A DNA stretch of 64,000 bases, taken from assembly GCA_022710715.1 (NCBI GenBank), contig JAKLGJ010000002.1:234171-298170 (forward strand), read 5' to 3'. The notes below the pieces were generated by a model. That model did no database searches. It was not told where the DNA came from and saw only the letters and a list, made by a program, of their open reading frames with translations. The DNA comes from Candidatus Omnitrophota bacterium (lineage in GTDB: Bacteria; Omnitrophota; Gorgyraeia; Gygaellales; Profunditerraquicolaceae). A program made the position numbers and the translations under genes. Below are positions 187 through 24,200 of the stretch, piece after piece (the first letter of the stretch is position 1; every line of letters starts with the position of its first letter).

Positions 187-189
187 TGT

Positions 190-4135: not shown

Positions 4136-4140
4136 AGGGC

Positions 4141-4692: not shown

Positions 4693-4753
4693 TAAACACC
4701 TCCTGGTTGTGCTTTATCGCGCATAATCGTCGGTTCTCCTTTTAATCGCAAAT

Positions 4754-6154: not shown

Positions 6155-6160
6155 TTGGCC

Positions 6161-6400
6161 CCTTAAAAAGAAAAATCCGGATTGCTTTTCCTGATTTCGG
6201 CAACCCGGTCAGTCAATGAAAAGGGAAAATCAAATTGAGAAACAAAAGCAATTCCCCCGACCCCGTGGCTTTCCCCGCCGGAGCGGGGCTTTTCGATCAA
6301 GAATTCTGCTGCATTGTTCAGTCAAAGTATAGCTTACCGCGGGCGTATTTTCAAGGCAGAAAGGCCGACTTTTGTATCTGTTAACAAGCGGGTTAAATCG
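6161..6400 (-). promoter_or_regulatory. conserved leader, copy 2 (hairpin CCCCGC-CGGA-GCGGGG, GGAAAGCCACGGGG, GCGGGTTAAAT x2).
   Basis: Near-identical blocks with 4141-4390. Confidence 0.45.
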
Positions 6401-6406
6401 GGCGGG

Positions 6407-8374
6407 TTAAATATTGATTCCGTATCCGGTGGCTTTTTTGAGTCCGGCTAAGGCCAGGAAGTAGTTGCCCAGGGCCTGGAAATATTTGGTCTGGGCGTCA
6501 GCCAGGCTGAAGAGCGAATCCATGGCTGAAGAAAGGGAAGCGTCGTTGACCATGGCTCTGATCTTGGTGATCTCGGCCTGGTTGCGGCGGAAAGCCATAT
6601 CCGCTGCGGCGGTATTGAGTTGCAATATGGCTTTCTGGTAATTCAAAAAAGAATCCTGGACTTCGAAGGTGATCGTTTTTTTGGTTTCATTGAGATCGCT
6701 GTAAGAACGATGCAGGTCGACGTCGGCTTTTTTCAAAGAGGATATCCCGGCGAAATTATCCAGGATACCCAGTTCTGCGCTGGCAGAGGTGGTCTCGGAG
6801 TTGTTGGTATGCCCGTAGCGGCGCTGCATTTTTTCGTGCAAAAAGGAGCTTTTTAAAGAGCTGGCGCCCAGCATTTTGCTGACTTTGATGCCCGCGGCCC
6901 AGTTCGCGGAATTCTGGAGATCTTCGGTTTTGTAATTGCCCCAGTAGTATTCATAAGAACCCACGGCGTCTATGGCGAAATTATCCTTGTCCAGCTCGAT
7001 CTTCTTGCCGTATTTATTGAACTTGACCATCATCTCGCCGATGTATATTTCCGGCCGGCTTTTCAGGGCTACATCAAAAAGCTCGTCGAGATTAAGATTC
7101 GGCTTGGTGACTTCCGGTTCCGCGAGTTGTATTTCCGGCAAATCCTTGGTGTTGAGCACCTGCTTGAAAGTAAGCTCCGCCAGATAAATATCTTCCTTCA
7201 GACTGGCCAACTGGAATTCGATCTGTTCGAAAGACGATTGCGCGCTTTTTAATTCCAGCGGGATGATCATCCCGATATCGGCTAATTTCTGGATCCGGGT
7301 GAGCAGTTCCTGGGCTTCGGTGCGCAGGGCTTCTTTATAGCGCCAATGGGTGCGCGAAGCGATGAGGTTGTAATAAGCGGTTTCGGTTTTATGGATGATC
7401 TCATACTGCAGGCGGTTGAGGTTCATCTTGGAAACTTCCAGGTTGGCTTTAGCGTGCTCGATGGAATCCAGCAATCTCCCGCCGTAATAGATCGGCTGGT
7501 TTACCTCGATTTTCGCATTCATTTCGCGATAAGGTCCGGAGTAATCACCGTCGGTATAGCTGCTGGAAACTTTAGCCGTGGGCAGAAGATTGCGCATGGC
7601 TTCTTTGACTTTGAACTCCGCCAGGTCCACTTCTTTCTGCGCGACCGCAGTAGGTTTATTATTCTTAAGGGACGTTTGAATGAAAGCGCTTAGTTCTTCC
7701 GGCCAGCGGACCGCAGAAGCTTTGGGTTCATAGCGGGTGGCGATCGGTATGCCTATGTCGACGGGTTGCTGCATGGGAGAGAATGCGGGTTGTTCCGGGC
7801 TTTCTTCTTCCGTCGCGGGCTGCTCTTCCTGTTGCGCGAGTAACTGCTGTAATTCTTCCGGCGAAACTTCGCGCTCGTATACGCCTTCCTGCTCCAGCGC
7901 CATTTCGGATTCGCCTTCCAGCGGCTGCGAGAAATCCGGTTCATAAAAATTCGGTTGCGAGGGCACCTCGATTATATCGCCCAGGTCATCCGTACTAATG
8001 TCGGAGATCGCGTATCTTAACGGTAAAACTATCTCCACTTCTTCGTAGCCGTCATAGTCTTCCGGCAACGGATACGGTCCTGCGTCGCGCACTGCCGTTA
8101 CCGCCTGCTCATCGAGAATGGGGTATCCGGATGATTCGGCGATCATGATAGCTTTGAGGTTCCCATCCGCGGCAATCGTGACTTTAAGAGTAACAATTCC
8201 TTCCCAGCCATTTTCAATAGCTTCATCCGGATAGATGAGCAGGGAATTGATCTTTTGTTGCACAAAATTGAGATATTCAGTATTCAGGGGGGCGAGCTGG
8301 GCAAAGAGGCTGCAAAGCGGCAACGCCAAAGATAAAAAGAATAATACCAATAAGATAATGATTTTTCTCGGCAT
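6407..8374 (-). CDS. TonB C-terminal domain fused to a TolC-like outer-membrane efflux protein (OEP).
   Basis: Preferred start is the ATG at 8374 (MPRKIIILLVLFF signal; GAGGA SD); the track ORF starts at 8422. N-terminal YPDEAIENGWEGIVTLKVTIAADGNLKAIMIAESSGYPILDEQAVTAVRDAG matches the TonB_C pattern. The rest shows TolC-family coiled-coil/beta-barrel repeat character. Confidence 0.65.
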   Translation of the reverse strand: MPRKIIILLVLFFLSLALPLCSLFAQLAPLNTEYLNFVQQKINSLLIYPDEAIENGWEGIVTLKVTIAADGNLKAIMIAESSGYPILDEQAVTAVRDAGPYPLPEDYDGYEEVEIVLPLRYAISDISTDDLGDIIEVPSQPNFYEPDFSQPLEGESEMALEQEGVYEREVSPEELQQLLAQQEEQPATEEESPEQPAFSPMQQPVDIGIPIATRYEPKASAVRWPEELSAFIQTSLKNNKPTAVAQKEVDLAEFKVKEAMRNLLPTAKVSSSYTDGDYSGPYREMNAKIEVNQPIYYGGRLLDSIEHAKANLEVSKMNLNRLQYEIIHKTETAYYNLIASRTHWRYKEALRTEAQELLTRIQKLADIGMIIPLELKSAQSSFEQIEFQLASLKEDIYLAELTFKQVLNTKDLPEIQLAEPEVTKPNLNLDELFDVALKSRPEIYIGEMMVKFNKYGKKIELDKDNFAIDAVGSYEYYWGNYKTEDLQNSANWAAGIKVSKMLGASSLKSSFLHEKMQRRYGHTNNSETTSASAELGILDNFAGISSLKKADVDLHRSYSDLNETKKTITFEVQDSFLNYQKAILQLNTAAADMAFRRNQAEITKIRAMVNDASLSSAMDSLFSLADAQTKYFQALGNYFLALAGLKKATGYGINI

Positions 8375-8410
8375 TATTTCCTCAAATTTAGATATATTTA
8401 GACAAGCTAG

Positions 8411-8439
8411 ATTATATAGCAATGCTTAAAATTTGTCAA
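8411..8439 (-). promoter_or_regulatory. consensus sigma70 promoter for the TonB_C-OEP gene (TTGACA - 17 nt - TATAAT on the minus strand).
   Basis: Plus-strand ATTATA 8411-8416 and TGTCAA 8434-8439. Confidence 0.6.
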
Positions 8440-8447
8440 GAGTTATT

Positions 8448-8474
8448 TGATACGGTATCAGTGATACGGTATCA
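8448..8474. promoter_or_regulatory. two tandem 13-bp perfect palindromes, TGATACgGTATCA (8448-8460 and 8462-8474). Candidate dimeric-regulator operator in the divergent promoter region.
   Basis: Direct reading. TGATAC and GTATCA are reverse complements. Confidence 0.55.
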
Positions 8475-8556
8475 ATTGGTATTATCGGCAAACGTGGCAA
8501 TAAAATCAGTTAATTTAAACTTTTTGTTAAAGCAACAAAAATATAGCTCCGCTGCC

Positions 8557-8591
8557 TTGACAGTGCCCTTTCTGTATGTTACATTTTGTGT
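8557..8591 (+). promoter_or_regulatory. sigma70-like promoter (TTGACA 8557-8562, 17 nt, TACATT 8580-8585). It places the TSS at the A of ATG 8592, giving a leaderless mRNA.
   Basis: Spacing read from the sequence. No SD precedes ATG 8592. Confidence 0.45.
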
Positions 8592-8927
8592 ATGGTATGC
8601 AAACTATGCGGTAATGAATTCCAGCCTAGCAAATATCACGCCAATCAACAGGTTTGCGGCAGCGCGGAATGTCAGAAGACGAGGCAGCTGCAGAACCAGA
8701 AGGAATGGCGCCAGCGCAATCCGGATTATTTTAAATGCCTCGGCCAAGAACAGGCTTGGAAAGAGAAGCGCCGGCGTTATAATCGCCTCTGGAAAGTCAC
8801 GCACCAGGATTTCCTCAAGGACTACGATCAAGATCACAAAGAGCAGCGCAGGGAATATATGCGCGGCTACATGCGCCGCTACCGTAGTCAATCGTTAACA
8901 GAGAAAAAAGTTAGTATAATTACTTGA
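8592..8927 (+). CDS. small basic Zn-ribbon protein (MVCKLCGNEF...QVCGSAEC then a Lys/Arg/Gln-rich tail), FmdB-like flavour. Leaderless start.
   Basis: CxxC..CxxxxC ribbon. The track ORF uses TTG 8586; ATG 8592 is preferred. The TGA stop at 8925-8927 overlaps the -35 of the giant-gene promoter. Confidence 0.45.
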   Translation: MVCKLCGNEFQPSKYHANQQVCGSAECQKTRQLQNQKEWRQRNPDYFKCLGQEQAWKEKRRRYNRLWKVTHQDFLKDYDQDHKEQRREYMRGYMRRYRSQSLTEKKVSIIT

Positions 8928-8952
8928 CATAGCCATTATTAACGATTATACT
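8924..8952 (+). promoter_or_regulatory. consensus sigma70 promoter of the giant gene (TTGACA 8924-8929, 17-nt spacer, TATACT 8947-8952).
   Basis: Direct reading. Confidence 0.6.
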
Positions 8953-9015
8953 TTTGGTGGAACTAAGTGCTTTTTTAAATAAATGTAAATTTATAAAAAA
9001 AGTACTTCTTATACG

Positions 9016-9092
9016 AAAAAGGCAAACCAAGAGAAATCTTGGGACGCAAAGCCACGGATCCTCGAGAGAGAAACTTTCAGGATAGCCGAGTT
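9016..9092 (+). ncRNA. candidate c-di-GMP-I (GEMM) riboswitch aptamer. GGCAAACC (9021-9028); P1 6-bp stem with GAAA tetraloop (9027-9042); GGGACGCAAAGCC (9041-9053); P2 (ACGGATCC ... GGATAGCCGAG, to ~9090).
   Basis: Same architecture and near-identical conserved blocks as the Vibrio Vc2 aptamer, as remembered: GGCAAA-CCAUUC-GAAA-GAGUGG-GACGCAAAGCC. Confidence 0.6.
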
Positions 9093-9120
9093 ACCGAAAT
9101 GAGTAGCTCGGCTTTCTTGT
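9084..9120 (+). terminator. intrinsic terminator / expression platform. AGCCGAG-16 nt-CTCGGCT hairpin followed by TTCTTGTTT. Its 5' arm is the 3' arm of riboswitch P2, so the two are mutually exclusive.
   Basis: Inverted repeat 9084-9090 / 9107-9113, then a U-rich tract. Confidence 0.55.
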
Positions 9121-9138
9121 TTAAACGAGGGTAAGCCA

Positions 9139-9237
9139 ATGTATGCCTGGCGAAAAACAATCTGGTTTAAAACAGTAGCCCTGACCATGGTCGGGGTATT
9201 TCTGTTTTCTGAAGTTACCTGGGCTGCCAGGTCAGAT
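9139..9237 (+). other. domain: N-terminal signal peptide / membrane anchor (MYAWRKTIWFKTVALTMVGVFLFSEVTWAARS).
   Basis: Hydrophobic core and AxA-like site. Confidence 0.6.
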
Positions 9238-12200
9238 TACAGATATACTGTTCCCTCGGTACCGTATCAAGGCAACAACCCGCTGCCTACCGCTCCCAAA
9301 TCGGGTCTAAAAGAGACGATATGGCAGATGTTCCAAAAGATATCTACTGCTCTGATTCCGCAAGCTTATGCCTTCGATTTCGGCAGTTCAGGTTCACCTA
9401 CCAGTCTTTCTTCGGGTTCTTCTTCCGGATCGTCTTCTTTAGGTTCATCTTCACTGGGTTCCTCCTCTTCCGGTTCGTCTTATTCGGGTTCTTCAGGTTC
9501 ATTTAGTTTCAGCAATCCGGTCAGCTTTTCATCCGTATCAAGCAAGGGAACCGTATCAACAACCTCCAGCTCGTTATTCTCGAGCTTAAGCCCATCGTCC
9601 TCTTTAAGTTCGACCAGCTCGAACGGGTTAAGTAGCATTAAATTCTCTACGCCAAGCACCACTTCTTCTTTAATTAACTCCGGCTTAAACTATACTCAAA
9701 CCAGCGCCTTTTCCAATAATTACTCCAGCAATGTGCCGAATTCGCAGTCTACGATCAGTCCAAGCTTTTCCTTAAATAATACATATTCTGCCCAAACCGG
9801 AACAAACGCTGGCGCAGTGCAGGCTCCCAGCTTGAATTTCTCTAACAGCAGCCCTAACGCGCAACCGACTGTAACGATGCCGCAGCCTACTGCTTCTGCT
9901 ACTATTCCGGCACCTGCGAATTCCGCGAACAATGTTCAGAGCGTAGAAAGAGGTCAGAATGCGGCTAATGTGACCGGCGCTTCCGTTACCGGAGCCCAGG
10001 CAGCCCAGCAGTATGCTTTAGCGGTGAAATCGCCTGCAGCCACAACCACCGATGCGATGAAGGCTTTGTCTGCTAACGCGCCGGTTAAAGAGAACGCAAT
10101 AGCCAATGTTGTGAATGACACGGTTAATTCTGCCATTACCGGAGTGAAAGAGTTAGTGGCTGAAGCTAAAGATAATGCCCAGGTTTCTATGGAGCAGGCA
10201 TATCAGACTGCAGAAAACGCCAAAAAAGCGTTATTCGATAAATTAAATGATCAGAGTGCAGCTTTTGAGCAGGCTTTTATAGAGCTTAAACAGAATGCCC
10301 AGGACACCACGCAAACGGCTAAAGAGATCGGTAGTCAGCTGATCGCCCAGGCGAATATGAAAGTTCAGGAAACCTTTGCCAGCTTGAGCGAGCAGGTCAA
10401 AAAAGATATGGAGCAGACTTACAGCGTGATGTACCAGGCTATCGCTACTGCGGTAGATGCTTTCAACAACAATATGAAGATGCCTCCGCTGAACCAGGCG
10501 ATTACGCCGATGGCGAATCGTCAGTCTGCAGTCAACGAAGACAGCCAGGCGCAGCTCGACAAGAGCAACCTCGTTTCTACCGTATATGATGCTCTGACCC
10601 AATATGCCCTGGATAATCTCAACGCGACTAAAGCCGAATATCAGGATTTCAGCAATATACTTATTGAGACGGTTTCGAAACAGTATCAGCCTACCGGTCC
10701 TCCGGCGGCGAACACCACTTCTTCCGCCTCTAAAACTCTCGTCGATAACTATATCACCGGCGCTGCCGGCTTGGCCGCTAAATCCACTGAACTGCTTTCC
10801 GCTCTCCAGGAAGCCAGCTCTTACGTCAAAGAATACATTTCCAATTATAAGCTGAATGATTCTCTCACTCTGCATTCAAATGATCCGCCCTGCGGCGCCG
10901 TAGCTCTCGCTCCTATCCTCGGCGTCAATGCCGGCACATTATCCACGGAGTTATCTTCCTCTAATAATAACCAGAATTCCATGTACGAGCTGCAGACCGT
11001 AGCTGCGAATCATGGAACTACCCTTAACGGCAGGAATATTTCCTATACCGATCTGACCCAGATCAGCGGCGAATCCACTATCGCTTATCTGGATATGGGC
11101 AACAATCAGGGCCACTATGTGACCGTGACCGGCGCTACCGCTGATACGGTTACTTATTGCGACGCCACCGGCTGCAATACGGTTTCCAGCGCGCAGTTCC
11201 AGTCCCAGTGGACCGGCGCGGTTCTGACCACCAATAATACGGTCGGCCAGCCTATGCCTGAAGCTACTTTAAGACAGACGTACGGCGGATATGACGTTTT
11301 GGGTACCATTTCTTCCGGCTTGAGCACAGCGGCTGGGATGGTTACGGGAGCAGCTGGAGCGCTCGTAGGCGGTGCAAGCAGCGCTATAAACACAGCTCTT
11401 TCCGGCGGCAGCTTGCCCCAGACCGTGAATAGCGGTATTTCCGGGGCCCAGAGCGGGTATAATACCGGCTATCAGCTGGGAAGCACGGCAGTTAAGAGCG
11501 CTGCCAGCACGCTTTCTTCCGGCGCCAGCTCGTTGTTGAGCCTGGGTTCATCTTCTTCGAGCAGCTCTTCCAGCAGCAGCCTGGCCGCCAGCGTCAATTC
11601 CAATAAGAGCACTTCCGGTTTGAGCCTTCTTTCCAACGGATCTGTACTCAATACCAATCTTTTCAGTTCCGGCAATAAGACTACCACCCAGACTACTTCT
11701 AAAACGGCATCCAGCCCGAGCGCGCTTACCAGCCTGACTACCTGGGTTAACAGCGGTATTCAGACCGTCAAGCAGGTGGGCGGCGATACCGCGAAAGAGA
11801 TCATGAGCCTGGGCGCGGCCGATACCGTTACCTATAATAAGGCGGCTTCTTCTCCGACATTCAGCCAGGTTGCTTTGGATACCGCCAAAGAAGTGGTTTC
11901 GTTTGGACAGGCCAATACCGTTACCTATAATAAGGTTCCTGCGTCCACTTCGCTGGTTGATTCTGCCAAGTCTGGATTGAATACAGTTACTGCTGCCGGC
12001 ACTGGTTTCCTGAAAGTCGGCGCAGGAGAAACTTTGAAAGTTACCGGTTCTGTGGTCGGCATTGCCGATCCGAACCTGGGCAAAACCATTCAGAAAGTCG
12101 GCGATGCGCTGATCGCAGATGGCGTTGCTTCCAGCCCGGCAGTAGAGGTTGTTGTGGAGCATCCGCTGACCCAGTTTATCGGCCAGAACGTGAATAAGCA

Positions 12201-15200
12201 GGTGCAGGCGGCTACCGACGGGACCAGAGCGGCGATTGATACTGCCGCGAAAATGATCGAATACAAAGCAGGCGAAACGATTAAAGATATTGTCGCTCCG
12301 GTAGTGAACATGGTCAGCCCGGATGCCGCCAAAGCTTTCAGCAAAGTCGGCGACGCGCTGACTACTGATGCGCGCAAAAATCCGGTCGTGGAAACCGTGG
12401 CTAAGACCGAAGAAGCCTTCAAGCAGGCAGTGGTTGATCCGATCATCACCACCGCGAGCAAAGCTATTGCTCCGGTTACGGAAACTGTGGCTAAAATCAC
12501 CTCTTCTTTTGCCCAGCCGGCACAGTCGTCCGAAACCCCGGTTATTATCGCGCAGTCCTCCAACACCACTCCCAGCATATTCAGCAAAGAAAATCAGGCT
12601 CAAGTCAAAGCTTTGATCAACGGAGTGAACAGCCCGATCAGCGCGCAGGCGGCGACTACCCCGAATGAAGGTTATACCTTCGTCAGCGGCACTGCGGTCA
12701 ACGGCACTGCCGCCAACCAGGCCGTTTCTCCGGCGTTCAACCAGACCCAGACCACTTCGAGCCCTTCGATTGTGTCTACTATCGCTTCGGCCATTTTCTC
12801 CTCTTCCACCGTGCAGAATCCTGCTACCGGCGCCGCCACCACGACGTACAGCGTCCTGGGCGTTCCGGTGGCTACCTATAATACGCAGACCCAGAGCGGC
12901 ACTATCGGCGTGGGCGCGGTTACTTTCATGAACTACAATTACAATTCCTCAACCGGCGCAGTTACCTATACTTTTGCGCCCGGCATCGAAACCTCCAGAC
13001 TGACCCCTGGGGCTAATGGGTCGGGGACTGCTTCAACGCAGACCCCGGCCCGTTACACTACTTCCGGCAATACCACGCCGGCAGTGGATGGGGCGTCTGT
13101 TAATAAAGAAGTGCAGACCAGCAATCCCGGGCAGCAGGTTGGCTTAACCGCAGGTCTGGCAGCCATGGCTGCGGTGATGGGGCCGTTGGGCGTGGCTTTG
13201 CTCACCGGCGCGAACCTGTATAACGCGGCCCAGGACTGGACTACCGTTTCTAAACCTGCGGCTGCAGATGTGGCTTCTGAAGACGCCAGCAGAGCCGTGC
13301 AGGCTTCCACCGGCAATGCCCAGCAGACCGGTATACTCGATGGGATCAAGACGTGGTTTAATAATACCTTCAATAAGGACAATTCTACGATCCAGCAGGA
13401 TCAGCTGATCAAGGATCAGAATCAGGACAAGCAGGTTTCCAACGGCGGCAATCTTCTGCCGGTCCTGGATAAAATCAATGCCAACGGTCTGCTCAAGAAT
13501 ATGAGCGCCAGCAAGACGCTTCCGGCCGGCGCTCCCGCAGGCGAAGCCGTTGTGCCCGCCGGCACCGGCGCCAACAACCAGACTAACGACGCTAATAACC
13601 CTACCAGCCAGGTTAAGGATACCAATGTGATCAACCAGTTCATTTCCTGGGTCGGCGGATGGTTCACCGATCCCAATTCGAGACGTACTACCGGTGTGGC
13701 TCCGCCGTCCGATAACTCTACTACTTCTTCTAATCAAACCGCATCGACTTCTGCCACCACCGGCACCAATCCTATCGCTAGCTTCTTAGGCAATGTCTTG
13801 TCCGCCTTCACCGGCAAAAATGATAAAGCTCTTGATCTTGATCAAACTGTAAGCAGCGCTTCTTTGATCTTCACTGCCATAGCTCCTCAAATCCCGGCAC
13901 TGGCCGCTATCTTTACCGGCAAGAATCCTACCCAGCCTGTAATGGACGGTATCGGCAAGCTTCTGAATCCCGAAAAACCAACCACTGCGATACCCGCTTT
14001 CAAAGTCAATGACACTCTGCTGCAGCAGTACAAAACCTCCTGGCCCAACGGTTATGGCGCGGCCATGGCTAATGTTACCGCGAATCAGGCCGTTCTTGAC
14101 CAGAAAGCCAAAGCCCTGGACCAGTATTTTACTGCAGTCGAAGAAAATGGCAAAACCTACTTACAGCCTAAACCGAATGTTAACCAGGCTGCCGCTGACC
14201 AGGCATATCAAGAATTTCAAGAGGCCCATACCAATTATCTCAATGCTACCAAAGCGGCCAATATAGGAGAAGACGGAAAGATTACTCCTGAAGCCGCGAA
14301 GGCTCTTAATGATTTCGAAGAGGCCTATGATTATGCATCCTTCACCGTTAATAATGGCCAGGGCGCGCAGACGTACAACTATGTCGGCGTGAATGGGTCG
14401 GTCTACGGCATTGACAGCAGCAAGGTTTACACCACCCAGAAAATCGCGGATAACACCTATTTGCTCCAGGATAACGGTAAGACCGTGTCCATTCTCACTA
14501 CCGATGCCCAGGGCGCTCCGGTCTCCATGATGGCGGTTGCTCCCAATGCGCAAGTCAGCACTGTGAACGGCCAGGTCGTTTTGACCTCCGGGGATAATAA
14601 ATACAAAGCTACGGTCAGCCCGGTGAAGAACGCCGCTGACCAGACCGTGCTCCAGGTTTCTGCCGAAGAATTCAAAACCTCTTTTGCGGATTTCGCCAAG
14701 AGCTGGGTTTTGAATGCCATCGGCGTGGAAAACACCGCTCCGGGTAATTATGAATCTGTGGGCGCGGTGAGTTTCAATGTGGGTTATACTGCACAGCATC
14801 CTACCGGAGAAACCACCTATACCTATGCCACCAGCATGCCGCAGCCGGGCGTTGTGGAATTTATTCAGGGGCTCATTGGTGCAAAGGTAACAAAGCAGGA
14901 TTACGAGTTACGCGCCAAAGATCAGACCATTATTTCAACCGGTACCGATGGTGCGCAGAATTATTCCGCTGCCAGAAAGACGACCCTGCAGGATTATGCG
15001 CAGATGGTGCTCAATCCGGAGGTTGACCCTACCACCAAAGCTATTGTTGCTGATCAGGCGGTTGCCCGCGAATTTACTCCTGCCCCGCTTGATTATCTCT
15101 GGGCATATATGACCAGCGGCGGAAATCCCGCTTTGGCCACTATGCAGGTGATGCAGAAAACCAGCGATAAAATAGAAACATTCGGCGCTTCCCAGGATCC

Positions 15201-18200
15201 TTCCGCAGTGATTATCCGTGATTATCGCCAGAGCGTGGAGTATCAGAAGACCATTCAGACCGACGCGTATAAGAATCTCGACGGTCAGCATATGAACGCT
15301 GCTTTAATTACCCGCACCGGAACAGGTTTATATGCTTTTGACGCGACTGTAGGCGCGGCAGCGTACACATTAGGCCTGAACAACAAATGGAATCAGTATG
15401 TTTCCGCGAATCAGGATAAGCTGGCAAGCGCTGGCATTGCTCCGGTTCAGGAAATATATACCGTGCTTGATCTCGGGTTCGATATCCTGACCGCGCTGGC
15501 CATTGCGGATATTGCAATTCCTGGCGGCGATGAAGCTTTGGTTATGGCCGCAAAAGCAGGATCTAAAGGCAGCCAGCTGGCCGTTGCCCAGACTGCGAAG
15601 ACCGGTTTGGCGCAGACTTTCAAACAGGGATTTAAGACTGCGGTGCGCGGCATGGCTACGGAATATGTCAAGGGCGGCGCGGCATTCGTGGCCCTGGATA
15701 ACGGTATTAATCTGGTGGCCAATCATCGTTTGAGCACTCCGGAAGAGATGGGGCAGTCTTTCAAGAGTGGTGCGACGTTGGCAGGAAGTGTAAATCTTTT
15801 GGTAAAAGGGGTAGGGTATGGGTTGAAATGGAAAACAGGGATTTCCACCGAAACGATTTCAAAAACGTTAAAATGGAATGAAGAGACCGGCAAAGTCGTA
15901 GACCAGGAAGGCCGACTGTTCAATTCTGTATCCGCCGCCGAAGATGTGCTTAAAAGCACAGAAGCAACCAAACTAAGCAAATTGAGCGCTGCCGGAAGAG
16001 TTGCTGGCGGCAGCGTTGTGGAACGTTTGATCCAGACCACTGTAGCTCCGGAACTGGCCTCGGTCAGTCTCAAGCAGATCGGCAACTGGGCAGGCATCGG
16101 CGTAGCGATGAACGTGGTCAGCGCGGGGATTTTCGAACACAGGCTTCCTTCCTTTGATGAAGTAATTGTTTCCGGTCTTTCTACAGCCAAGGATGCTTTC
16201 TGGCTGCAGCCGATGTTAGGCCTGGGCCAGCTCGACCGCGCAGTATTGCCGAAGACCAATATTCTGAATCGCCTGGCTGCAGAAGGTCATAGCGTGTCCA
16301 GCGTAGTGAAATTGAGCAAAACCGGCACAAAGTTCATCGAAGAGGGTGGAAAGAGATTAACTAACGTCGCTAAGCGTATGCCGACAGCCGGTGTTCCCGG
16401 AAAGATCACGCAGAAAGTTCTATTGCCGACAGTTCGCCAGGTTGCGGGCGTGATGGACAACGCCTTCTTTATTGCTCCGTTGCTGGAAGTAGAGAAGAGA
16501 GGGCTGGATGCTATTCCTGGCGTCGACGGAACGACCGCCGATAAAATCGCTTTCCTTTCCCTGTTATTCTTGCCTGCGAAAGTCGGTCTGATTGATTCCG
16601 CCCGCGCCAAGAAGAACGCCGTTGATACCTATCCGGACATTGTTAAATTAGGCAAGGTCGAGACATTCTATCAGGATGGTTTATTGAAGGCTACGACAGA
16701 AGGGAAAGAATATATAGCGAGTTATTTTGAACCGCTCTACAAGTCCGTCGATCCCGATACTCAAATTTCGTCGGCTACTCGCGATGTGGAGACCAACAAC
16801 GGTTATGTCCAGTATAAGAGTTTCAAACTGATCGAAGCCCGGGAAGAAGCAGAGACCGGTGTGCATATCTTTAGAAGCCTGGATGCGATCGGAGTGTTGC
16901 CTAAAGTGGGAAAATCCATTTCGGTGGGGAAGGTTGATTATCTGGGCGATTATACGAAGCTGAAAGATCAGCCTGCCGATGCCCAGATCAATCCGGATAC
17001 CAAAGGCAAAGATATAGTTACTTCTTTTCTGGCATATGAGGACGGACGGGTTATCGGCGAAGCAGAAGCAAGCGTGGCTTCAGCGGTGAAAGGGGTGCAA
17101 AAAGTTCTGCTGGAGCGCTCTTTGAACGGAAAATCGGATACTGATCTTGCTGCTATTGCTGCCGCCGGGAAAGCCGCGCTTGACAACAGGCAGGAGTTTG
17201 ACAGGTTAGAGGATGCTGATATTAAGCTGGTCGCGGACAGAATGCGCGTGGCTTCTTTTGTCACCCTGGATGCCAAAGCGGCACAGGATGTACTGTTTGC
17301 TCTGGCCGTAGACGAGAATAATGCGTTTGCCCAGAAACGGATTGCCGATGAAATTAAGATCCGTCAGAATCCCGCCATTGCCCAGGAATATGAGAAATTT
17401 ATCGAAGCCAGACGTACCGAAAAAGAGAGCAAAACAAAAATCTCTAACGAACGCGCCTTGAGTTTGTTGATTGCTGCGGGGATCGCGCCTGCGCTTATTC
17501 AGAGTTCGAATAGTTATCAGGAGAGGGAAAAAGAGTGGAAAGCCCTGGTTGAGGCAAAGACTTCCCGTTTGACCGACGAAACCAGAAGCAGCATCGAACA
17601 GCTTATCAAAAACGACCCGAGAGTGCTCTTGACTCAACCCAGAAGTTTTGATGCGGTTATGACGCTGCGCGGCTTGAGGGATTCCAGGGATATCGATTGG
17701 AAAGCCGGGATTGTCACGGAGAATGGCGAGGTTGTCGGTTATGATGCGAAGCAGCTTCCGCAGTTGCATAGCGATAAAGAAATCGACGGCGAGCTCAAAG
17801 AGGAAATTCAAGCCAGCATCGATAGATTCGGGGAAACGCTTGACGGCACCACTACCTTTGACTATACCAAGTTAATCAGACAGATCCCGGCGTTGATTAC
17901 GGAGCCGTTGCGCGTGATGGGTGAAAGCAGCGGCAGGCTGGTGGTTACTGACGCCGGCGCTGAACAGGGTAAGAGCGCTCTCGGTATTCCGTCAATCGCG
18001 CGTTATTTCATGCGTCGGGGCATCAAAGGAGCAGGCGTTAATCCTACGGCAGAGCTCGCCCGGCAAGGGTTCGATAAAATGGTGAAGGTCGATGCCACTA
18101 GAGATGAAGCCCAGGTGGAGGTTGGCGGGGAGAAAAAGAACGTTCGCATCCTGACCAATGACGATACCAAAGATCCTCTTGCCTTGCTCAAATTTGTGGA

Positions 18201-21200
18201 AGACGCTGATTTTCTTTACTACGATCTGGCAACCTACATGAATCTGCGTTTGCGCGCCAAAGATAATCCGGATTATCTGCCCGTGGTCAAGGCTCTGGAG
18301 AACCGCGATTTTACTCTGCTCGATGAAGTGCAGGATTTGATTTCCGCTGCTCCGCATATCGTCGGCTACGACAACAACAAATTGACCCAGGAGCAAAAAG
18401 ACGCGAATAGCAAGCTCCTCAAAGATCTTTTGCCGGCAATGTGGGGGTTGGCCGGCAAGGCCAAAACAAGCGGGTTTACCCCTAAATTCATTGAGGCCAT
18501 TATTGAAAAAGGAAATGACGAATGGCAGGGTATCGCAGAATGGAGCGGTAAAGAGCCCGGCAAGGGTGTTCTGGAGCCGACAGAGAAATTTTTCAACATT
18601 CCGGGTATGGAGGCTTACCGTGACAATACCCAGATGAAAAAACTTGTTTACGGTATGTTCGAAGCGCTGGGAGGCAAAGGCGGCAACGCCATGTCTTTGA
18701 AAGACGGTAAAGTGTATCCTAATCATAACGGCTACCTGCATGAAGATATGCATTTCCAGAGCGTGGAAAGATCCGTAGCCTACCAGATATTCGGACGTCT
18801 GGCTTTAGAGAACGGCAATGCCGCCGCACACTATAAGAACCTGGGAGATAGCAAGTATCTCGATGCCGAACTGGACAAAGTTGATGTCAGCGACAAATCT
18901 TTACAGACTGTGGCTCTGGAGTTATTCGTCAACCTCAAATCACCACTGAAACTTTCTTTCTCTGCTACGCCGGAAAGCATTATTGGTTTAAGCGAAGTCA
19001 TGGGCGTAACTTTGGCTAAAACGCGGGCAGTTGAGGTGGAAGGCGGAGAAGTGCGTATCGAAACCACTGCATCCCCTGTTCTTAACGTCGATAAATTAGC
19101 TGCCAATTTGGCCGGAGAAGTGAAAGCTTTCTGGGACAGCGGCCGTATGGAGATTAAGTCCACCCGCGACCTCGACCAGATCACCCAGAGGATAAAAGAA
19201 TCGCACGATGCTAATAAGCCTGCAGAGCTAAGGAAGCAAGTCACGATCATCGTAGCCATTGACGGCAATCATTACGATCAGATCGTAAGAATGGCCACTG
19301 AAGCCGGCGTCCCTGTTTATAGCATGGTTGCCGAGAATGGCATATTTAAACAGCTTGATGCAGTCAAGTGGGAAAATGCCGCAGTCAAGAACGGCGAGCG
19401 CGTTAGTCAGGATGATTTGGTTAAGCGCATGAAGACGGGCGATGAAATGGTGGTGCTCTATAACCGCCCGCATTTTCAGGGTATTGATAAATTTGTTCCG
19501 GATAAGCGTGCGGACGACAAGACAATGCTTTCTCGCGAGTGGATTGTGATCGCCGATCGCTCGACCACTTTGAAGAAGCTGGCACAGGCCATTAGAAGGC
19601 CGCGTCTGGATGTGAAGAATGAAGCAATCCCGATGGAGCTCTGGCTGCTGGGCAACGGCAAGGAATTTACCGTTAACCAGGCGTTGGATCAGTTCACCCG
19701 GAATGAAATCCAGGAACTTAATGACCTGCGTTTCAAGACGTTGCATGAAGGAGCGGTTATGGGCTATGACCGCGCTTTCAGCGAAGCTTATGATCGCGCC
19801 GAGAGCGCTGCAGAGAAAGAAGCTATCATTAACGCCTGGAGAGAATATTATTCCAAGACTTCTACGCAGGACAGTATTACCAAGAAACAGGATATCCAGG
19901 CGGATCAATTGTTGCAGTCGCAGCTGACCAGCGCTTCCTCCAGGTTTATTGAAGTGTTTGGTGATGACTTCACGTTTAAGGCAAGCCTCAAGCCTGCGGC
20001 GCTGGAAGTGATCGAAGATTATCTGCTTCAGGCGAACGCCATCAAGTCGGGCGTTACTTTCAGAGGCGATGATGTGGCTCTGGCGGATTTCGTCCGCGAG
20101 AATATCGGCTTGGCTAATTTGCGGCCGGCAGATTACATCAAGGTGATCGAGGGCGCGTATAAAGCCGAGGATCTGGCTAAGCTGGAAGTTTCCACCAAGC
20201 GCACCGGCACGCCGGCAGCGGAAGTGGCGGCTCGTGAAGGGGTGAAGATTCTTTCCCAGGCCAAGGCCGAAGGGCGGGATATTACTGCCGGCGAGCTTTC
20301 TACCGAATTGACGCCGGTGCTGCGCGATGCGGGATTTTCCGCCAAGGATATTCGCAGCGGTATCATGGCGTTATTCGGCATACTCTTCAAGGAAAAGGAT
20401 GCCGCCAAGAATAACGATGACCTGGATAAAGTCATCATGGAATCGAAACATGCCATGACCGACGGTCTGAAAGTGTGGGCGAACAGAGCGGATCCGGCGA
20501 ATATTTACGGCAGCAAATCGACCATGACCACTTTTGGCAAAACCGTGATCGATGCCGAGAATTTGATCAATGGCGAAGAGGACAGCCTGTTGATCTTGAC
20601 TGCGGCGGTACATAACATGCCGGAAGGCGCGAAGAAGACCGAAGCGACCAAGCTCCTGGCCGAATTGGTCCAGAATAATCAGGGCACTTTTGCCAGCTAT
20701 CCGAACTGGATGAGTCTGCATACTCTTGGCGTGATGGATGCTTCAGTGATTTCTTCGCTTATCGGTCTTTACGGCATCTTCAAGGATGACGACACCGGTT
20801 CCGCGTCCCCCTATGTGGATACTTTCAAGGATCTGAATAAAGTCTCGGGAGTCGCATTGAAAGATGTTATCGGGGTGGAAGCCGGCGCTGCCGAACAGAC
20901 GTTGTTGAGCATGGTCAAGAATATCGCCGCGCCTGCGTTCGCCAAAGCCGGATTCGACATGCCGGATTTCGCAGGTATGGATACCGCCAACCAGATGCGG
21001 CGGATCAATAACGCGCTGGACATTCTGGAGCTGGGTATCGAGAACTTCCGCACTTTCTCGCCGGCGATCAGCGGTCTGAAAGGTCTGAATGAGAATAATG
21101 ATATCCTGTTCACTTTGACTTCTCCGCTGAATAATCGGCTGTTCGTTCTGGCCGATGCGCTGGCTCGCGTTGACGTGGAACCGCAGGTGCTCAAGACGTA

Positions 21201-24200
21201 TCTGGATAGCTTTAATAATCTTCCTGAAGCGGAGCGGATGAATCGTCCTCCGATCGAGATCGCCACCCTGTCCGGCCTGGACGGCAGCGTTGGCTCAACC
21301 ATCCGCAGGCTGGATATGGAAATCTCGATGACTGCGGACGCTTCCCGCAAGCAAATGCTCCAGAATGCCCGCAATACGCTGGCGACCACTTTGATTGAAT
21401 ATAACGCCAAGAATATGGCGGAAAAGAACCAGGATAAAGATTTCGATATGGAAAAAGAATTCAAGGATAAATGGACTCTCGTAACCGATCTGATGGAACA
21501 GGATGGCGCTTTCGACAATAAGGCTGCCGGCCTGGCGTCACTTATGGGTGCTTTCTACCCGGCCAGGGACATTTCTACTCCGCAGCTGTTGTTCAAACAG
21601 ATTTACGATACCGCAGAAAAAGCCGGTAAGAATGCCTACGATATGATCGCTGGCTCCGAGGTTCGCATTAACAACCTGTACCGTTCGAATAAAGAAGACG
21701 GGGACCAGTTAAAAGGATTATTCCTGCAGATCGGCAAGCAGGTGAACAATGACAACAGCTTTAAGCTTCCCGAAGAATTCGTGAATATTGGTGAGGATGG
21801 CATTGCCAGGATTAACGAAGCGCAGGAACGGGAAGGCAAAACCGCGCTGGATGCCAAGACGCTTGGTCTTGGCAGCACCGCCGCCAAAAAGGTCCTGGGC
21901 GGATTGTTCGAACATCCGCTGTATAAATTTGCGCAGCAGACCGGCGACGCGGATTTTGCCCGGCAGACCCTGAACAACCTGATGATCGCCAGCTACGGCT
22001 ATACACCGGAAATTTATTCCTTCGACACTATCCTGAATCAAGAGAAGATGGGTTGCGTTATGTATTCTTTGACCAACTATATCGGTATGAGGCTGAATGG
22101 CATCGCGGATGAAGATATCGTGATCAGCCGTCTGGAATCCAGCCGGAACTCCTACAGCCACGTTGTGGCAGGCAACATCTACGAACGCAATGCGGAGAAT
22201 CCCGATGATTATAAAGCCACCTATTATGATCCTACTCCGTTAGGAGTAAGACGCGGACTGAAAGTCGCCCTGGATTTCGGTCAGCTGGCTAAAGATTCCT
22301 CCGCCCCGGATAAATTTGCCCTCAAGGGTCTCAACACCGGCAACGCCTATTTCGATACCTATGATACCATTCGGCATATTTCCAACGGCAAAGGTCCGGA
22401 TGGTCTTTTTGCCGCGATCCTGCGCAACCGTCCGGCAATCATGGAGAATTACCATGCTCTGCAGGCCGCCACACAGCTTGATCCTTATGACATGGGCGCA
22501 AAGAGGAAGTTCGACAAGGTCAACGCGCCGGTAGAGCAATTCAACAGGGTATTGCAGGGTGCTGTGAATAAAGCGAAGGCAGAGGCTGCGGCAGCTGCCG
22601 CAGAATCAACCGAAGCGCAAGATTCCAAGTCTGGTGAGACGCCCGTACCTTCATCCTCCTCGGGGACCCCCGGCTCACCGGCTGTTAACAACGCTAACGC
22701 CGGCAACAGCAACGAAGAAAACGCCGTCGTTACCGATACCGATAGGGGCAACGCTCCTCAAGCAGTCAGCGGAGCAACTGAAGCAGATGTCACTCCTGCC
22801 GCAGAAGAAATCGGCAGCTCACATAATCGCGGTCCTCCGGCAACTGAAACCACTACTTCTTCTGAATCAGAGAATGCAGTGAAGAATGCAGAAGATGAAG
22901 AAAATGACGGAGGTAAGAAATGGTCAAATTCACTTATCAAGAACTCCAGATCAACCATCTGGTCAGCTTCAAGCAGGACGACAGCATACTCGCAGCGTGC
23001 CGAGAGAACGGCAAATCGCGCTTATTCATGGCTTTCCCGGACAGGGTTTACGTCCATACCGCAGGCAATTGGGAACTTCTCGAGGAGACCGCAAGCACGG
23101 ACATCCTTAGCCGGATCCAGCAAGCGGTCCAGCGCGGCATCACTATCTTCCATCTCGACAGCAGCGTCGCGGTCACGCAAGGAAGATTTAACAACTAGCA
23201 GGAAAGTTTCAGCAACCGGCTTCATACCTTTCATAAAGAATCTCTTCCGCGTTGGCGCGTATGTCGCCAACGTGTTGACGGTCATATATACGAAGTTCAC
23301 CGAGCTGCCCATATCCCTATCCACCGTGGCTGGTAGGAGAGAGATTACCGGGCAGCTCATTAATTTTAACGGCCTTAGACAGACTCTCGATCATGCTTCA
23401 CTTTCCGTGGCTGGTGAGGGGCATAGATTTATCGAGAACACTGCTAAGGCCGTGACTATTTTCGTGCAATCACTTCGGCTGCCTGTTGCACTGCTTTCCG
23501 TGGCTGGCAGGCACTTTGCGCAGGCAGCCGGTAGATTTGGCTCCAGATCAAGCGAAATCAAAGCTTCACCTTCCGTGGCTGGTGGGGAGCAAAAGATTAC
23601 CGCTTCTGGAGCCTCTTATTCTTGGTCCGGGTTCAGCCCTGATTATGCATCACTTTCCGTGGCTGGTGAGGGGTATAATTTTGCGGCTTCCCGGACCTCT
23701 TTGGATTATTTTGGGCTGCCTGCATCTCTATCTACCGTGGCTGGTGGAGACGTGCAGGCGGCCTTTACCTTTGGCTCCGGCTTCAATTATCAATTCGCTT
23801 CATCTTCCGTGGCTGGTGAGGGGCAGATTGATGAAGCCGGAGCTTTTGATTCCAACGCGTTCCTGGGTCGGAACGCACAACCGGCTGTCCTGACGTTCAC
23901 CCGGGCGGGTGACGCAGTACAGACGGACAGAACTGTTGTTATGGGCGGCGAAAAAAGAGTCCCTACCTCCGGGAAATCTGACCCCTCTTTGAGTAGTCGC
24001 CCTAACAACGAAATCGGAGGTGTCACATGGTCAAGGTCAACGGGAACTGGATCGAGCTCAAACACCTGGTCGTATTCGACAACGGCAGCAAAATCTTCGC
24101 AGCAGGAAGAGAATGCAGCAGCAACAGCAGAAAACAGCTTCGCTTATTCCTTATCAACGAGCATACCGGCGAGATATTCTCTCGTAACGGCAGAGCAGAA

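What the first reader, a model, noticed from the sequence alone, without database searches (positions are those of the whole stretch)
8375..9138. Compact divergent control hub: consensus promoters in both directions, tandem palindromic operators, leaderless Zn-ribbon mini-gene whose stop overlaps the giant-gene -35
The minus-strand promoter (8411-8439) and the giant-gene promoter (8924-8952) both match TTGACA-17-TATAAT/TATACT. Between them sit two adjacent 13-bp perfect palindromes, TGATACgGTATCA (8448-8474), at about -45 to -70 of the minus promoter. There is also a promoter-like TTGACA-17-TACATT ending 6 nt before ATG 8592, which gives a leaderless message for a 111-aa CxxC..CxxxxC basic protein. 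That protein's TGA (8925-8927) lies inside the next TTGACA. Such a small Zn-ribbon basic protein is a plausible nucleic-acid-binding regulator of the giant gene or the operators.
Basis: seen in the sequence. Interest (0 to 1): 0.5.

Follow-up and report, generated by a model that had tools for sequence, protein, structure and literature searches.

The report
Control hub of an Omnitrophota giant gene

Summary
Three points need correcting.

1. The main regulator was missed. A c-di-GMP-I riboswitch aptamer lies at 9012-9099 (Rfam 71.6 bits). Its 3' half is also the 5' arm of a terminator (9084-9113). This predicts an ON switch 25 nt before the giant ORF (9139 to beyond 64000, about 54,000 aa).

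2. The "palindromic operators" are two copies of a conserved 9-mer, TGATACGGT.
- In related loci it occurs as direct repeats that start 8-9 nt beyond the -35 of the outer-membrane-protein promoter.
- It occurs again inside the first 2 kb of the giant ORF, on both strands and in four reading frames. That points to selection on the DNA.

3. The 3' end of the small gene overlaps a conserved 21-bp box, GTTAACAGAGACAAAAGTTAG.
- Box, promoter, aptamer and terminator together form a cassette present four times in the window.

The leaderless small zinc-ribbon gene is real: its -10 ends 6-7 nt before the start codon in 23 of 30 loci. It is always linked to this hub. It has no known family or fold, so its role as a regulator remains an inference. 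The FmdB-like assignment is not supported.

The parts
6407..8374 (-). Divergent gene for a TonB_C + OEP (TolC-like outer-membrane) fusion protein of 655 aa. Its GAGGAA ribosome-binding site is at 8383..8378.
   Evidence: Pfam: OEP 1.2e-34 and TonB_C 3.8e-15. The gene is conserved next to the small gene in every hub locus.
8411..8439 (-). P_OEP: TTGACA-17-TATAAT, with the predicted transcription start near 8404.
   Evidence: 12 of 12 matches. A TTGACA-17-TATACT or TATAAT promoter lies on this strand in 25 of 32 related loci.
8448..8474 (+). Two copies of the 9-mer TGATACGGT (8448-8456 and 8462-8470). Here each copy is extended to a 13-bp palindrome. The first copy starts 8 nt beyond the -35 of P_OEP.
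   Evidence: Orthologous arrays of 2-4 direct repeats lie in the same place and orientation. The offset to the -35 is 8-9 nt in 16 loci.
8557..8585 (+). P_small: TTGACA-17-TACATT with TGn. The -10 ends 6 nt before the ATG.
   Evidence: The promoter is conserved, with a 6-7 nt gap to the start codon in 23 of 30 loci and no Shine-Dalgarno sequence in 28 of 30.
8592..8927 (+). Leaderless gene for a 111-aa basic protein (pI 9.7, net charge +12). It has an N-terminal CxxC...CxxxxC zinc knuckle followed by four helices.
   Evidence: 17 homologues at 55-69% identity with invariant Cys and an invariant NPDYFKCLGQ motif. AlphaFold2 pLDDT is 83.7. No family match was found.
8894..8914 (+). GTTAAC box, GTTAACAGAGAAAAAAGTTAG, ending 9 nt upstream of the -35 of P_giant. 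In this genome it lies inside the tail of the small ORF.
   Evidence: 4 copies in the window against 0.01 expected. There are 48-51 non-redundant copies in related loci, every one followed by a promoter. The box is coding in some loci, non-coding in others, and read in a different frame here.
8924..8952 (+). P_giant: TTGACA-17-TATACT, with the predicted transcription start near 8959.
   Evidence: 11 of 12 matches. It is conserved in all aligned loci, with a 17-nt spacer in 47 of 48 cassettes.
8965..9007 (+). AT-rich leader hairpin containing a T-run, upstream of the aptamer.
   Evidence: It forms in the minimum-free-energy fold; the z-score for the whole leader is -6.1. A T-run at about +12 to +25 recurs in other loci. 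Its function is unknown.
9012..9099 (+). c-di-GMP-I (GEMM-I) riboswitch aptamer.
   Evidence: Rfam RF03167: 71.6 bits against a gathering score of 59, E = 5.5e-15. An orthologous aptamer scores at or above gathering in 16 of 20 hub loci. 11 of 17 base pairs show compensatory changes.
9084..9123 (+). Intrinsic terminator: stem 9084-9113 and T-rich tail 9114-9123. Its 5' arm is the 3' part of the aptamer.
   Evidence: -24.1 kcal/mol, z = -6.9. The same overlap design occurs at essentially all of 39 non-redundant aptamers.
9139..64000 (+). Giant ORF, open to the end of the window (more than 18,287 codons). Its GAGGG ribosome-binding site is at 9127-9131, and a Peptidase_C39 domain covers aa 580-700.
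   Evidence: A public gene call gives 54,154 aa from an internal start.
9261..11150 (.). Intragenic 9-mer copies: 9261-9269 (-), 9550-9558 (-), 10680-10688 (-), 10748-10756 (-) and 11142-11150 (+).
   Evidence: In 20 loci the first 700 nt of the giant ORF hold 56 copies against 1.3 expected, on both strands and in several frames.

Best explanation
This is the conserved control region of the giant-gene locus of Candidatus Omnitrophota. It has three promoters.

- P_OEP (minus strand) drives a TonB_C-OEP outer-membrane gene.
- P_small starts transcription at, or within a base of, the A of ATG 8592. This gives a leaderless mRNA for a 111-aa basic zinc-ribbon protein. No terminator follows that gene, so its transcript runs into the riboswitch.
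- P_giant is preceded by a 21-bp GTTAAC box and starts a leader of about 180 nt near 8959.

The leader contains a c-di-GMP-I aptamer (9012-9099). Its 3' strand (AGCCGAGUUAC) is also the 5' arm of a terminator hairpin (9084-9113).
- Without ligand the terminator forms, and transcription stops about 25 nt before the ORF.
- With c-di-GMP bound, the aptamer helices hold that strand. RNA polymerase then reads into a gene of about 163 kb. This is an ON switch.

The same cassette (box, promoter, aptamer, terminator) precedes three further genes on the minus strand, so the locus behaves as one c-di-GMP-gated regulon.

A second layer is an array of the 9-bp site TGATACGGT. It abuts the -35 of P_OEP and is also embedded in the 5' coding part of the gated genes. 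It most likely binds a locus-specific DNA-binding protein that acts at P_OEP and as a loop anchor or roadblock inside the genes. The small protein is the leading candidate for that factor.

Status of each step:
- Shown by sequence and comparison: the promoters, the leaderless geometry, the aptamer, the mutual exclusion of aptamer and terminator, and the non-random, multi-frame placement of the 9-mer and the box.
- Inferred: the ligand, the ON logic in vivo, protein binding to the 9-mer (about 0.65), and the identity of the binder as the small protein (about 0.3).

The overall confidence of 0.75 applies to the core: a conserved three-promoter hub with a c-di-GMP ON riboswitch gating the giant gene, plus the 9-mer array and the box as real cis-elements.
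For: Aptamer:
- 71.6 bits, E = 5.5e-15.
- It has an A where the canonical consensus has A and the GGC-variant consensus has G, and it has GUUACCGA (alignments).
- Its P1b loop is GAAA.
- 11 of 17 pairs covary across 13 Omnitrophota copies.

Terminator:
- -24.1 kcal/mol, z = -6.9, and it forms in the minimum-free-energy fold of the whole leader.
- In one search, 39 non-redundant aptamer 3' cores all show a hairpin that uses the core as its 5' arm, with compensatory arm changes. All but one are followed by a T-run on inspection; the automatic flag caught 23 because further hairpins downstream confused it.

Promoters are conserved.

Synteny OEP | small gene | aptamer | giant gene:
- It holds in loci fetched through the small protein.
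- It also holds in 4 of 4 loci fetched independently through distant OEP homologues of 35-42% identity.

GTTAAC box: 4 in the window against 0.01 expected. 37 of 51 copies have an aptamer core within 400 nt.

9-mer:
- 15 copies in window 1-11150 against 0.74 expected, but 4 in 11151-64000 against 3.2 expected.
- 58 against 1.2 expected upstream of the small gene, and 56 against 1.3 in the first 700 nt of the giant ORF.
- Minus-orientation copies fall in all three frames, encoding PYQ, TVS and NRI/DRI.

Small protein: basic, with a zinc knuckle. One relative is fused to a LacI-type sensor domain that has no helix-turn-helix.

Published context: pilZ genes follow the giant genes, and many giant proteins contain GGDEF domains (bioRxiv 10.1101/2023.11.21.568195).
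Against: - There are no transcript or binding data; the organism is uncultivated.
- The best Rfam model is the GGC variant, whose ligand I could not verify. The canonical model's own score is hidden by clan competition.
- The U-tract in this genome is imperfect (TTCTTGTTTA).
- Plus-orientation intragenic 9-mers always encode x-D-T-V, so selection on the peptide cannot be excluded for those copies.
- Its paralogues sit next to ROK regulators, at least one of which (L022) has its own helix-turn-helix domain.
- Nothing ties the small protein to the 9-mer rather than to the box, to RNA, or to the giant protein itself.
Confidence: 0.75

Rival explanations
1. The riboswitch and promoters work as described, but the small protein is not the factor that binds the 9-mer or the box. 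It could be a co-regulator that binds another transcription factor or RNA polymerase. It could be an RNA-binding or translation factor. It could also be a partner for export or assembly of the giant protein. The 9-mer and the box would then be read by proteins encoded elsewhere.
For: - No DNA-binding fold or family was detected.
- Paralogues lie directly after ROK regulators, at least one of which (L022) has its own winged helix.
- One relative carries an extra C-terminal region that I judged by eye, without a test, to look like a winged helix.
- No 9-mer occurs in or next to the small gene's own promoter at a fixed distance.
Against: - The small gene is present in every hub locus examined, including 4 of 4 fetched independently of it.
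- It is strongly basic and has a zinc knuckle.
- The 9-mer is absent from the paralogue loci that have a different context.
- One relative replaces the LacI helix-turn-helix with this domain.
Confidence: 0.45
2. The 9-mers are not protein-binding sites. The intragenic copies would reflect a repeated peptide (DTV) and codon habits in low-complexity N-terminal regions. The intergenic copies would be relics of the same repeats or of a small mobile repeat.
For: - All 40 plus-orientation intragenic copies are in the x-D-T-V frame, often as tandem DTVDTV or NDTVNDTV.
- The N-terminal regions are low-complexity.
Against: - 49 minus-orientation copies fall in three different frames and encode unrelated peptides.
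- Frame 0 of the plus orientation is a stop codon, so only two plus frames are possible at all.
- The intergenic copies keep one orientation and an 8-9 nt offset from a -35 hexamer in 16 loci.
- There are no copies in the small gene or in the leader.
- Copies are confined to the first 11 kb of the window.
Confidence: 0.12
3. The aptamer senses a ligand other than c-di-GMP (for example c-GAMP or an unknown ligand of the GGC variant class), or it acts as an OFF switch.
For: The top-scoring Rfam model is RF03167, c-di-GMP-I-GGC, not RF01051. Three sister aptamers in the window are strongly divergent.
Against: - The window's aptamer has ACGCAAAGCC, like the canonical consensus, not ACGCGAAGCC as in the GGC consensus.
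- It keeps the G before GCAAACC and keeps UUACCGA. From my own knowledge, these correspond to G20, A47 and C92 of the Vc2 structure.
- The terminator's 5' arm is itself part of the aptamer, which allows only ON logic.
Confidence: 0.1
4. The 9-mer cluster marks a replication origin or another chromosome-structure site, not a gene-regulatory element.
For: - The site is a 9-mer found in clusters on both strands, which is the format of a DnaA box.
- Genes diverge from the hub.
Against: - The sequence is unlike TTATCCACA.
- GC skew is positive to the left of the hub and negative to the right, the opposite of an origin.
- The cluster travels with the OEP/small-gene/giant-gene module in all lineages.
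Confidence: 0.03

Closest known systems
c-di-GMP-I (GEMM-I) riboswitch, Rfam RF01051 / RF03167 (clan CL00126)
   Same: - Full-length match above the gathering score.
- GNRA-capped P1b and a P2 with covariation.
- Conserved junction nucleotides.
- A terminator as the expression platform.
- Placement before a surface or adhesion-type gene, as is typical for GEMM (PMC7266159).
   Different: - It gates a gene of about 163 kb.
- It is part of a fixed cassette with a 21-bp upstream box and a consensus promoter, repeated four times in one locus.
- Three sister copies have a stripped-down P1b and fall below Rfam thresholds.
Omnitrophota giant genes (West-Roberts et al. 2023, bioRxiv 10.1101/2023.11.21.568195)
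   Same: - Same phylum.
- An N-terminal signal region followed by a C39 peptidase domain.
- A link to c-di-GMP, which that paper inferred from downstream pilZ genes and from GGDEF domains.
   Different: Neither that paper nor the 2026 complete-genome preprint contains the words riboswitch, promoter, zinc or TolC. The hub, the small gene and the cis elements are not described there.
Operator arrays with auxiliary sites inside coding sequence (lac O1/O2/O3, gal OE/OI, deo), acting by looping or roadblock. This comparison is from my own knowledge.
   Same: Sites lie upstream of a promoter and also inside the 5' part of the regulated ORF, so that they bracket the promoter region.
   Different: - The sites are asymmetric 9-mers in tandem with 9-14 bp periods.
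- They are far more numerous and are spread over several genes.
- The binding protein is unknown.
Leaderless mRNAs of small regulators (for example lambda cI from P_RM). This comparison is from my own knowledge.
   Same: The -10 hexamer ends 6-7 nt before the start codon, and there is no Shine-Dalgarno sequence.
   Different: The geometry is conserved across a whole protein subfamily in a phylum where leaderless translation has not been studied.
   Same: A small protein with four Cys and long helices.
   Different: - No Pfam hit, even at E up to 10, to either family.
- The Cys spacing is CxxC-x15-CxxxxC, at the N-terminus.
- The domain order is the reverse of DksA.

Membership tests
c-di-GMP-I riboswitch (GEMM-I) | Covariance-model score above the curated gathering threshold over the full model. 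| tested here: met
   RF03167: 71.6 bits against 59, model positions 1-80 of 80, E = 5.5e-15.
c-di-GMP-I riboswitch (GEMM-I) | P1b and P2 helices supported by covariation. | tested here: met
   RNAalifold on 13 Omnitrophota copies: 11 of 17 pairs have compensatory changes.
c-di-GMP-I riboswitch (GEMM-I) | Canonical ligand-contacting nucleotides (G20, A47, C92 of Vc2; numbering from my own knowledge). | tested here: met
   AAAGGCAAACC, ACGCAAAGCC and GUUACCGA are all present. The A matches the RF01051 consensus, not the G of the RF03167 consensus.
c-di-GMP-I riboswitch (GEMM-I) | Binds c-di-GMP and changes expression. | not testable with these tools
   This needs in-line probing or ITC, plus transcription termination assays.
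Intrinsic (factor-independent) terminator | A GC-rich hairpin followed directly by a U-tract. | tested here: met
   An 11-bp stem with 6 GC pairs, then TTCTTGTTTA; -24.1 kcal/mol. Orthologues mostly have T6-8.
Sigma-70-type promoters (all three) | -35 and -10 hexamers with a 17-nt spacer, conserved in orthologous positions. | tested here: met
   12, 10 and 11 of 12 matches. Conserved. Transcription starts were not mapped.
Leaderless mRNA | Transcription start at the start codon and no ribosome-binding site. | tested here: inconclusive
   The geometry fits: a 6-7 nt gap in 23 of 30 loci and no Shine-Dalgarno sequence in 28 of 30. The start itself needs 5'-end mapping.
   No Pfam family at E up to 0.01. 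No such family among weak hits up to E = 10 for 17 members. NCBIfam gave none.
Known DNA-binding folds (for the small protein) | Structural similarity to a solved DNA-binding domain. | tested here: not met
Transcription-factor operator (9-mer array, GTTAAC box) | A specific protein binds the site and changes promoter output. | not testable with these tools
   Only enrichment, fixed offsets and multi-frame embedding are shown.

The most novel reading that the evidence does not exclude
The leaderless zinc-ribbon protein founds a new family of DNA-binding regulators. It reads head-to-tail arrays of the asymmetric 9-mer TGATACGGT. These sites have been written into coding sequence in whichever frame permits them. 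They bracket the giant-gene promoter and riboswitch, forming a loop or roadblock. Transcription of a 163-kb gene would then need two inputs together: high c-di-GMP at the RNA level and release of the protein at the DNA level.
Probability: 0.25. Interest if true: 0.7.

Novelty: new variant of a known kind. Interest (0 to 1): 0.6.

Why it matters
- Omnitrophota giant genes encode some of the longest proteins known, and it is unknown when they are expressed or why. A c-di-GMP ON riboswitch 25 nt before the ORF gives a concrete, testable answer: the gene is read only when c-di-GMP is high.
- This fits the pilZ genes and GGDEF domains already reported for these loci.
- The repeated cassette of box, promoter, aptamer and terminator defines a locus-wide regulon.
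- The 9-mer arrays are an unusually clear case of a cis-element maintained inside protein-coding sequence in several reading frames.
- The small protein is an uncharacterised family (383 cluster representatives) that now has a defined genomic role to test.

Tried and rejected
- **Family and fold of the small protein.** These searches found nothing informative:
  - Pfam
  - NCBIfam
  - PDB sequence profile
  - Foldseek against PDB
  - the afdb50 library, which was unavailable
- **Alternative ORF 8422-8898 (+).** It has no family hit and is not the conserved frame.
- **TTG 8586 as the start codon.** Rejected: it abuts the -10 hexamer, and all homologues begin at the Met aligned with 8592.
- **Searching with the N-terminus of the giant protein.** This found nothing, because the tool needs shared exact words.
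- **Testing whether hubs exist without the small gene.** In 4 of 4 distant loci fetched through OEP homologues the small gene is present, even where gene callers missed it. No counter-example was found, so the test could not separate the small protein from other candidate binders.
- **Origin-of-replication reading of the 9-mer cluster.** Rejected on the direction of the GC skew.
- **Invertible-promoter (phase variation) reading.** Rejected because intragenic copies are in direct orientation in many loci.
- **Weak Rfam hits in the interval** (S15-Halobacteria, RAGATH-19/20 and others). All are far below their gathering scores and are treated as chance.
- **Meaning of the GGC variant name.** A literature search did not settle it. 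I relied on the consensus lines printed by cmscan.
Full report
**Source and setting**

The small ORF is 100% identical to a hypothetical protein of a Candidatus Omnitrophota MAG on a 914-kb contig. The plus-strand ORF that starts at 9139 has no stop codon up to the end of the window, so it has more than 18,287 codons. A public gene call gives 54,154 residues from an internal start. The finding therefore lies just upstream of one of the Omnitrophota giant genes described by West-Roberts et al. (bioRxiv 10.1101/2023.11.21.568195).

**Observation check**

- P_OEP: TTGACA 8439..8434, 17-nt spacer, TATAAT 8416..8411 (12 of 12).
- P_giant: TTGACA 8924-8929, 17-nt spacer, TATACT 8947-8952 (11 of 12).
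- P_small: TTGACA 8557-8562, 17-nt spacer, TACATT 8580-8585, ending 6 nt before ATG 8592.
- Two TGATACGGTATCA palindromes at 8448-8460 and 8462-8474.
- A 111-aa ORF whose TGA (8925-8927) lies inside the next -35.

The promoter scan alone is not significant: 6 sites against 3.3 +/- 1.8 expected. The case rests on conservation, described below.

- Rfam finds a single match above threshold in the whole window. It is a c-di-GMP-I-type aptamer at 9012-9099 on the plus strand (RF03167, 71.6 bits against a gathering score of 59, E = 5.5e-15).
- It lies between P_giant and the giant ATG.
- The best model is the GGC variant. At the position where the two printed consensus lines differ (ACGCAAA in RF01051, ACGCGAA in RF03167), the window has the canonical A. 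It also keeps AAAGGCAAACC and GUUACCGA.
- A hairpin at 9084-9113 (-24.1 kcal/mol, z = -6.9) is followed by TTCTTGTTTA. Its 5' arm, AGCCGAGTTAC, is the 3' strand of aptamer helix P2 and runs to the edge of P1.
- The hairpin is present in the minimum-free-energy fold of the whole leader.
- The aptamer and the terminator are therefore mutually exclusive. Ligand binding should prevent termination, which makes this an ON switch.
- The design is general. In one search, 39 non-redundant aptamer 3' cores from related loci all fold into a hairpin that uses the core as its 5' arm, with compensatory arm changes (GTTACC/GGTAAC, GTTGCC/GGCAAC, GCTGCC/GGCAGC). On inspection all but one are followed by a T-run.
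- RNAalifold on 13 copies supports P1b and P2, with compensatory changes in 11 of 17 pairs.

**Conservation of the module**

- The small protein has 17 close homologues with no Pfam domain.
- Their loci show the same order: TonB_C-OEP gene (-), small gene (+), giant gene (+).
- Seventy-seven further loci were fetched with the protein alignment.
- An aptamer at or above the gathering score lies between the small gene and the giant gene in 16 of 20 hub-type loci scanned.
- As an independent test I fetched four loci through distant OEP homologues of 35-42% identity. All four carry the small gene, twice uncalled by the gene finders (tblastn). All four also carry the 9-mers and the aptamer.

**The small gene**

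- The alignment shows invariant C22, C27 and C49, nearly invariant C3 and C6, and an invariant NPDYFKCLGQ block.
- Every homologue starts at the Met aligned with 8592.
- In 30 non-redundant loci the best promoter is TTGACA-17-TATATT. Its -10 ends 6-7 nt before the start codon in 23 loci, and 28 lack any Shine-Dalgarno sequence. The leaderless reading is therefore well supported by comparison, but it has not been mapped.
- The protein is basic (pI 9.7, net charge +12).
- AlphaFold2 gives an N-terminal zinc knuckle and four helices (pLDDT 83.7).
- No family, PDB-sequence or fold match was found. The FmdB-like idea is not supported.
- A profile search finds 383 cluster representatives.
- One relative is a LacI-type sensor domain without its helix-turn-helix, fused to this domain. 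That hints at a DNA-binding role.
- A more distant subfamily (41-49% identity) sits directly after ROK regulators; the one from L022 has its own winged helix. That weakens the hint. These paralogue loci have neither the 9-mers nor the giant-gene context.

**The "palindromes" are a 9-mer array**

- TGATACGGT occurs 8 times in the window against 0.15 expected.
- With the degenerate form TGATAYNGT there are 15 copies in 1-11150 (0.74 expected) and 4 in the remaining 53 kb (3.2 expected).
- Counts across 20 non-redundant loci:

| Region | Copies found | Expected |
|---|---|---|
| 400 nt upstream of the small gene | 58 | 1.2 |
| Small gene | 0 | 0.43 |
| Leader | 0 | 0.67 |
| Giant ORF, nt 0-700 | 56 | 1.3 |
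| Giant ORF, nt 1400-2200 | 24 | 0.8 |

- The upstream copies nearly always have the orientation of the small gene. They form 2-4 direct repeats with periods of 9-14 bp.
- The first copy starts 8-9 nt beyond the -35 of a TTGACA-17-TATACT minus-strand promoter in 16 of the 25 loci where that promoter is found.
- Only the window and L011 extend the unit into a palindrome.
- Inside the giant ORF, minus-orientation copies fall in all three frames (22, 18 and 9 copies). They encode PYQ, TVS and NRI/DRI.
- Plus-orientation copies are all in the x-D-T-V frame. Frame 0 would be a TGA stop.
- This pattern argues for selection on the DNA, not on a peptide.
- The other gated genes in the window also carry copies in their 5' coding parts: 5451-5459, 3303-3320 (encoding DTVDTV) and 92-100.

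**The GTTAAC box and the cassette**

- The C-terminal tails of many homologues read VNRDKS*. In the window the same DNA, GTTAACAGAGAAAAAAGTTAG (8894-8914), is read in another frame. In other loci it is non-coding. The conservation is therefore in the DNA.
- The box occurs four times in the window against 0.01 expected: at 8894-8914 (+), 6385-6365 (-), 4366-4346 (-) and 453-433 (-).
- Each copy is followed by a promoter, a GEMM-like aptamer and a terminator ahead of a gene.
- Across loci there are 48-51 non-redundant boxes. Near 2 bits of information are found at GTTAAC.GA..CAAAAGTT.G. The distance to the -35 is 9-10 nt, and the promoter spacer is 17 nt in 47 of 48. Of the 51 copies, 37 have the aptamer 3' core within 400 nt.
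The conserved feature is this upstream box.

**Mechanism**

The well-supported part:
- P_giant starts a leader near 8959.
- The aptamer-terminator pair decides whether RNA polymerase enters the ORF.
- No terminator-like site lies between 8592 and 9084. Transcripts from P_small therefore end at, or pass through, the same gate.
- Three further cassettes place the neighbouring genes under the same signal.
- This agrees with the reported pilZ genes downstream of giant genes and with GGDEF domains in many giant proteins. Neither Omnitrophota giant-gene paper mentions a riboswitch or a promoter, and no paper in the library links the three terms.

The inferred part:
- The 9-mer arrays and the box are protein-binding sites.
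- The small protein is the best candidate for the 9-mer binder, because it always travels with the arrays. Nothing here tests binding.

**Rivals**

- The small protein may have another role.
- The 9-mers might reflect peptide repeats. The three minus-strand frames, the fixed offset from the promoter and the intergenic copies argue against this.
- The aptamer might sense another ligand or act as an OFF switch. The canonical nucleotides and the overlap of the terminator arm with the aptamer argue against this.
- An origin-of-replication reading is contradicted by the direction of the GC skew.

**Verdict**

- The riboswitch itself is a new member of a known class.
- The composite hub is a new variant of known regulatory designs. 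It combines repeated box-promoter-aptamer cassettes, a 9-mer array embedded in coding sequence, and a leaderless protein of an unknown family. It lies in front of an exceptional gene.

Noticed in passing
window 6195-6298 (-), 4176-4279 (-), 242-338 (-): Three further GEMM-I-like aptamers, each preceded by a GTTAAC box and a promoter and followed by a terminator. All are below the Rfam gathering scores (20.0, 25.8 and 28.5 bits). In the first two, the P1b internal loop is replaced by a plain hairpin (CCCCGC-UCCG-GCGGGG and CCCCUC-UCGA-GGGGGG), and the J2/1 junction reads UGCC. L008 carries a similar stripped-down aptamer before its giant gene (L008 4430-4540). They could be a variant class or decaying copies.
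   Followed up: partly
window 9139 versus 9817 (L087 11226): The public gene call for the giant gene starts 226 codons downstream of ATG 9139 (54,154 aa). The conserved N-terminus, MxxWRxKxWxKxxALTxxGVFLFSEVTWAAR, and the GAGGG ribosome-binding site place the true start at 9139. That would make the protein about 54,380 aa.
   Followed up: partly
window 8959-9011 and the orthologous leaders (e.g. L046 3136-3180, L050 3108-3150, L059 4402-4440): Between the predicted transcription start and the aptamer there is a conserved T-run at about +12 to +25 and an AT-rich block (TTATTTnTAAATAGTTTT). In some loci a clean hairpin plus T-run resembles a second terminator just after the start. In the window a long hairpin lies at 8965-9007. 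The function is unknown.
   Followed up: partly
window 3303-3320 (-): Two abutting TGATACGGT copies lie inside the 542-aa gene (2507-4135) and encode DTVDTV. The same tandem DTV coding repeats occur in giant-gene N-termini of other loci (L001, L052).
   Followed up: partly
window 4754-6154 (-) and 2507-4135 (-): The two riboswitch-gated proteins (466 and 542 aa) have no Pfam or NCBIfam match and begin with the same peptide, MEKQxNRT. They look like paralogues.
   Followed up: no
L014-L032, L035, L069-L070 (e.g. L021 2832-4333, L022 2761-4387): A paralogous subfamily of the small protein (41-49% identity, lacking C49) lies directly after a ROK-family regulator gene, with the stop and start codons adjacent. 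It has no OEP gene, giant gene, 9-mer or riboswitch next to it. A third group (L032, L071, L074, L076) has its own consensus promoter with a short leader.
   Followed up: partly
P0046 (407 aa) and P0028 (261 aa): Two fusion proteins contain the small-protein domain. One has a LacI-type periplasmic-binding-like sensor without a helix-turn-helix, followed by the small-protein domain at the C-terminus. The other has the domain at the N-terminus followed by a C-terminal extension that looked like a winged helix by eye; this was not tested.
   Followed up: partly
L041 1163-1254 (-), L049 1385-1482 (-), L012 608-763 and 904-1026 (-), L009 12-119 and 742-850 (-), L086 7023-7134 (+): In related loci the genes downstream of the OEP gene carry full-scoring c-di-GMP-I aptamers, sometimes two in series within 300 nt (L012, L009).
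   Followed up: no
window 531-2510 (-), and the 2,320-aa gene that starts near 185 (-): A 659-aa protein with MgtE_N and FliG_M-like segments and a TPR repeat. Next to it is a large riboswitch-gated gene whose product starts with a signal peptide and GSTGSTG repeats. Both belong to the divergent arm of the locus.
   Followed up: no
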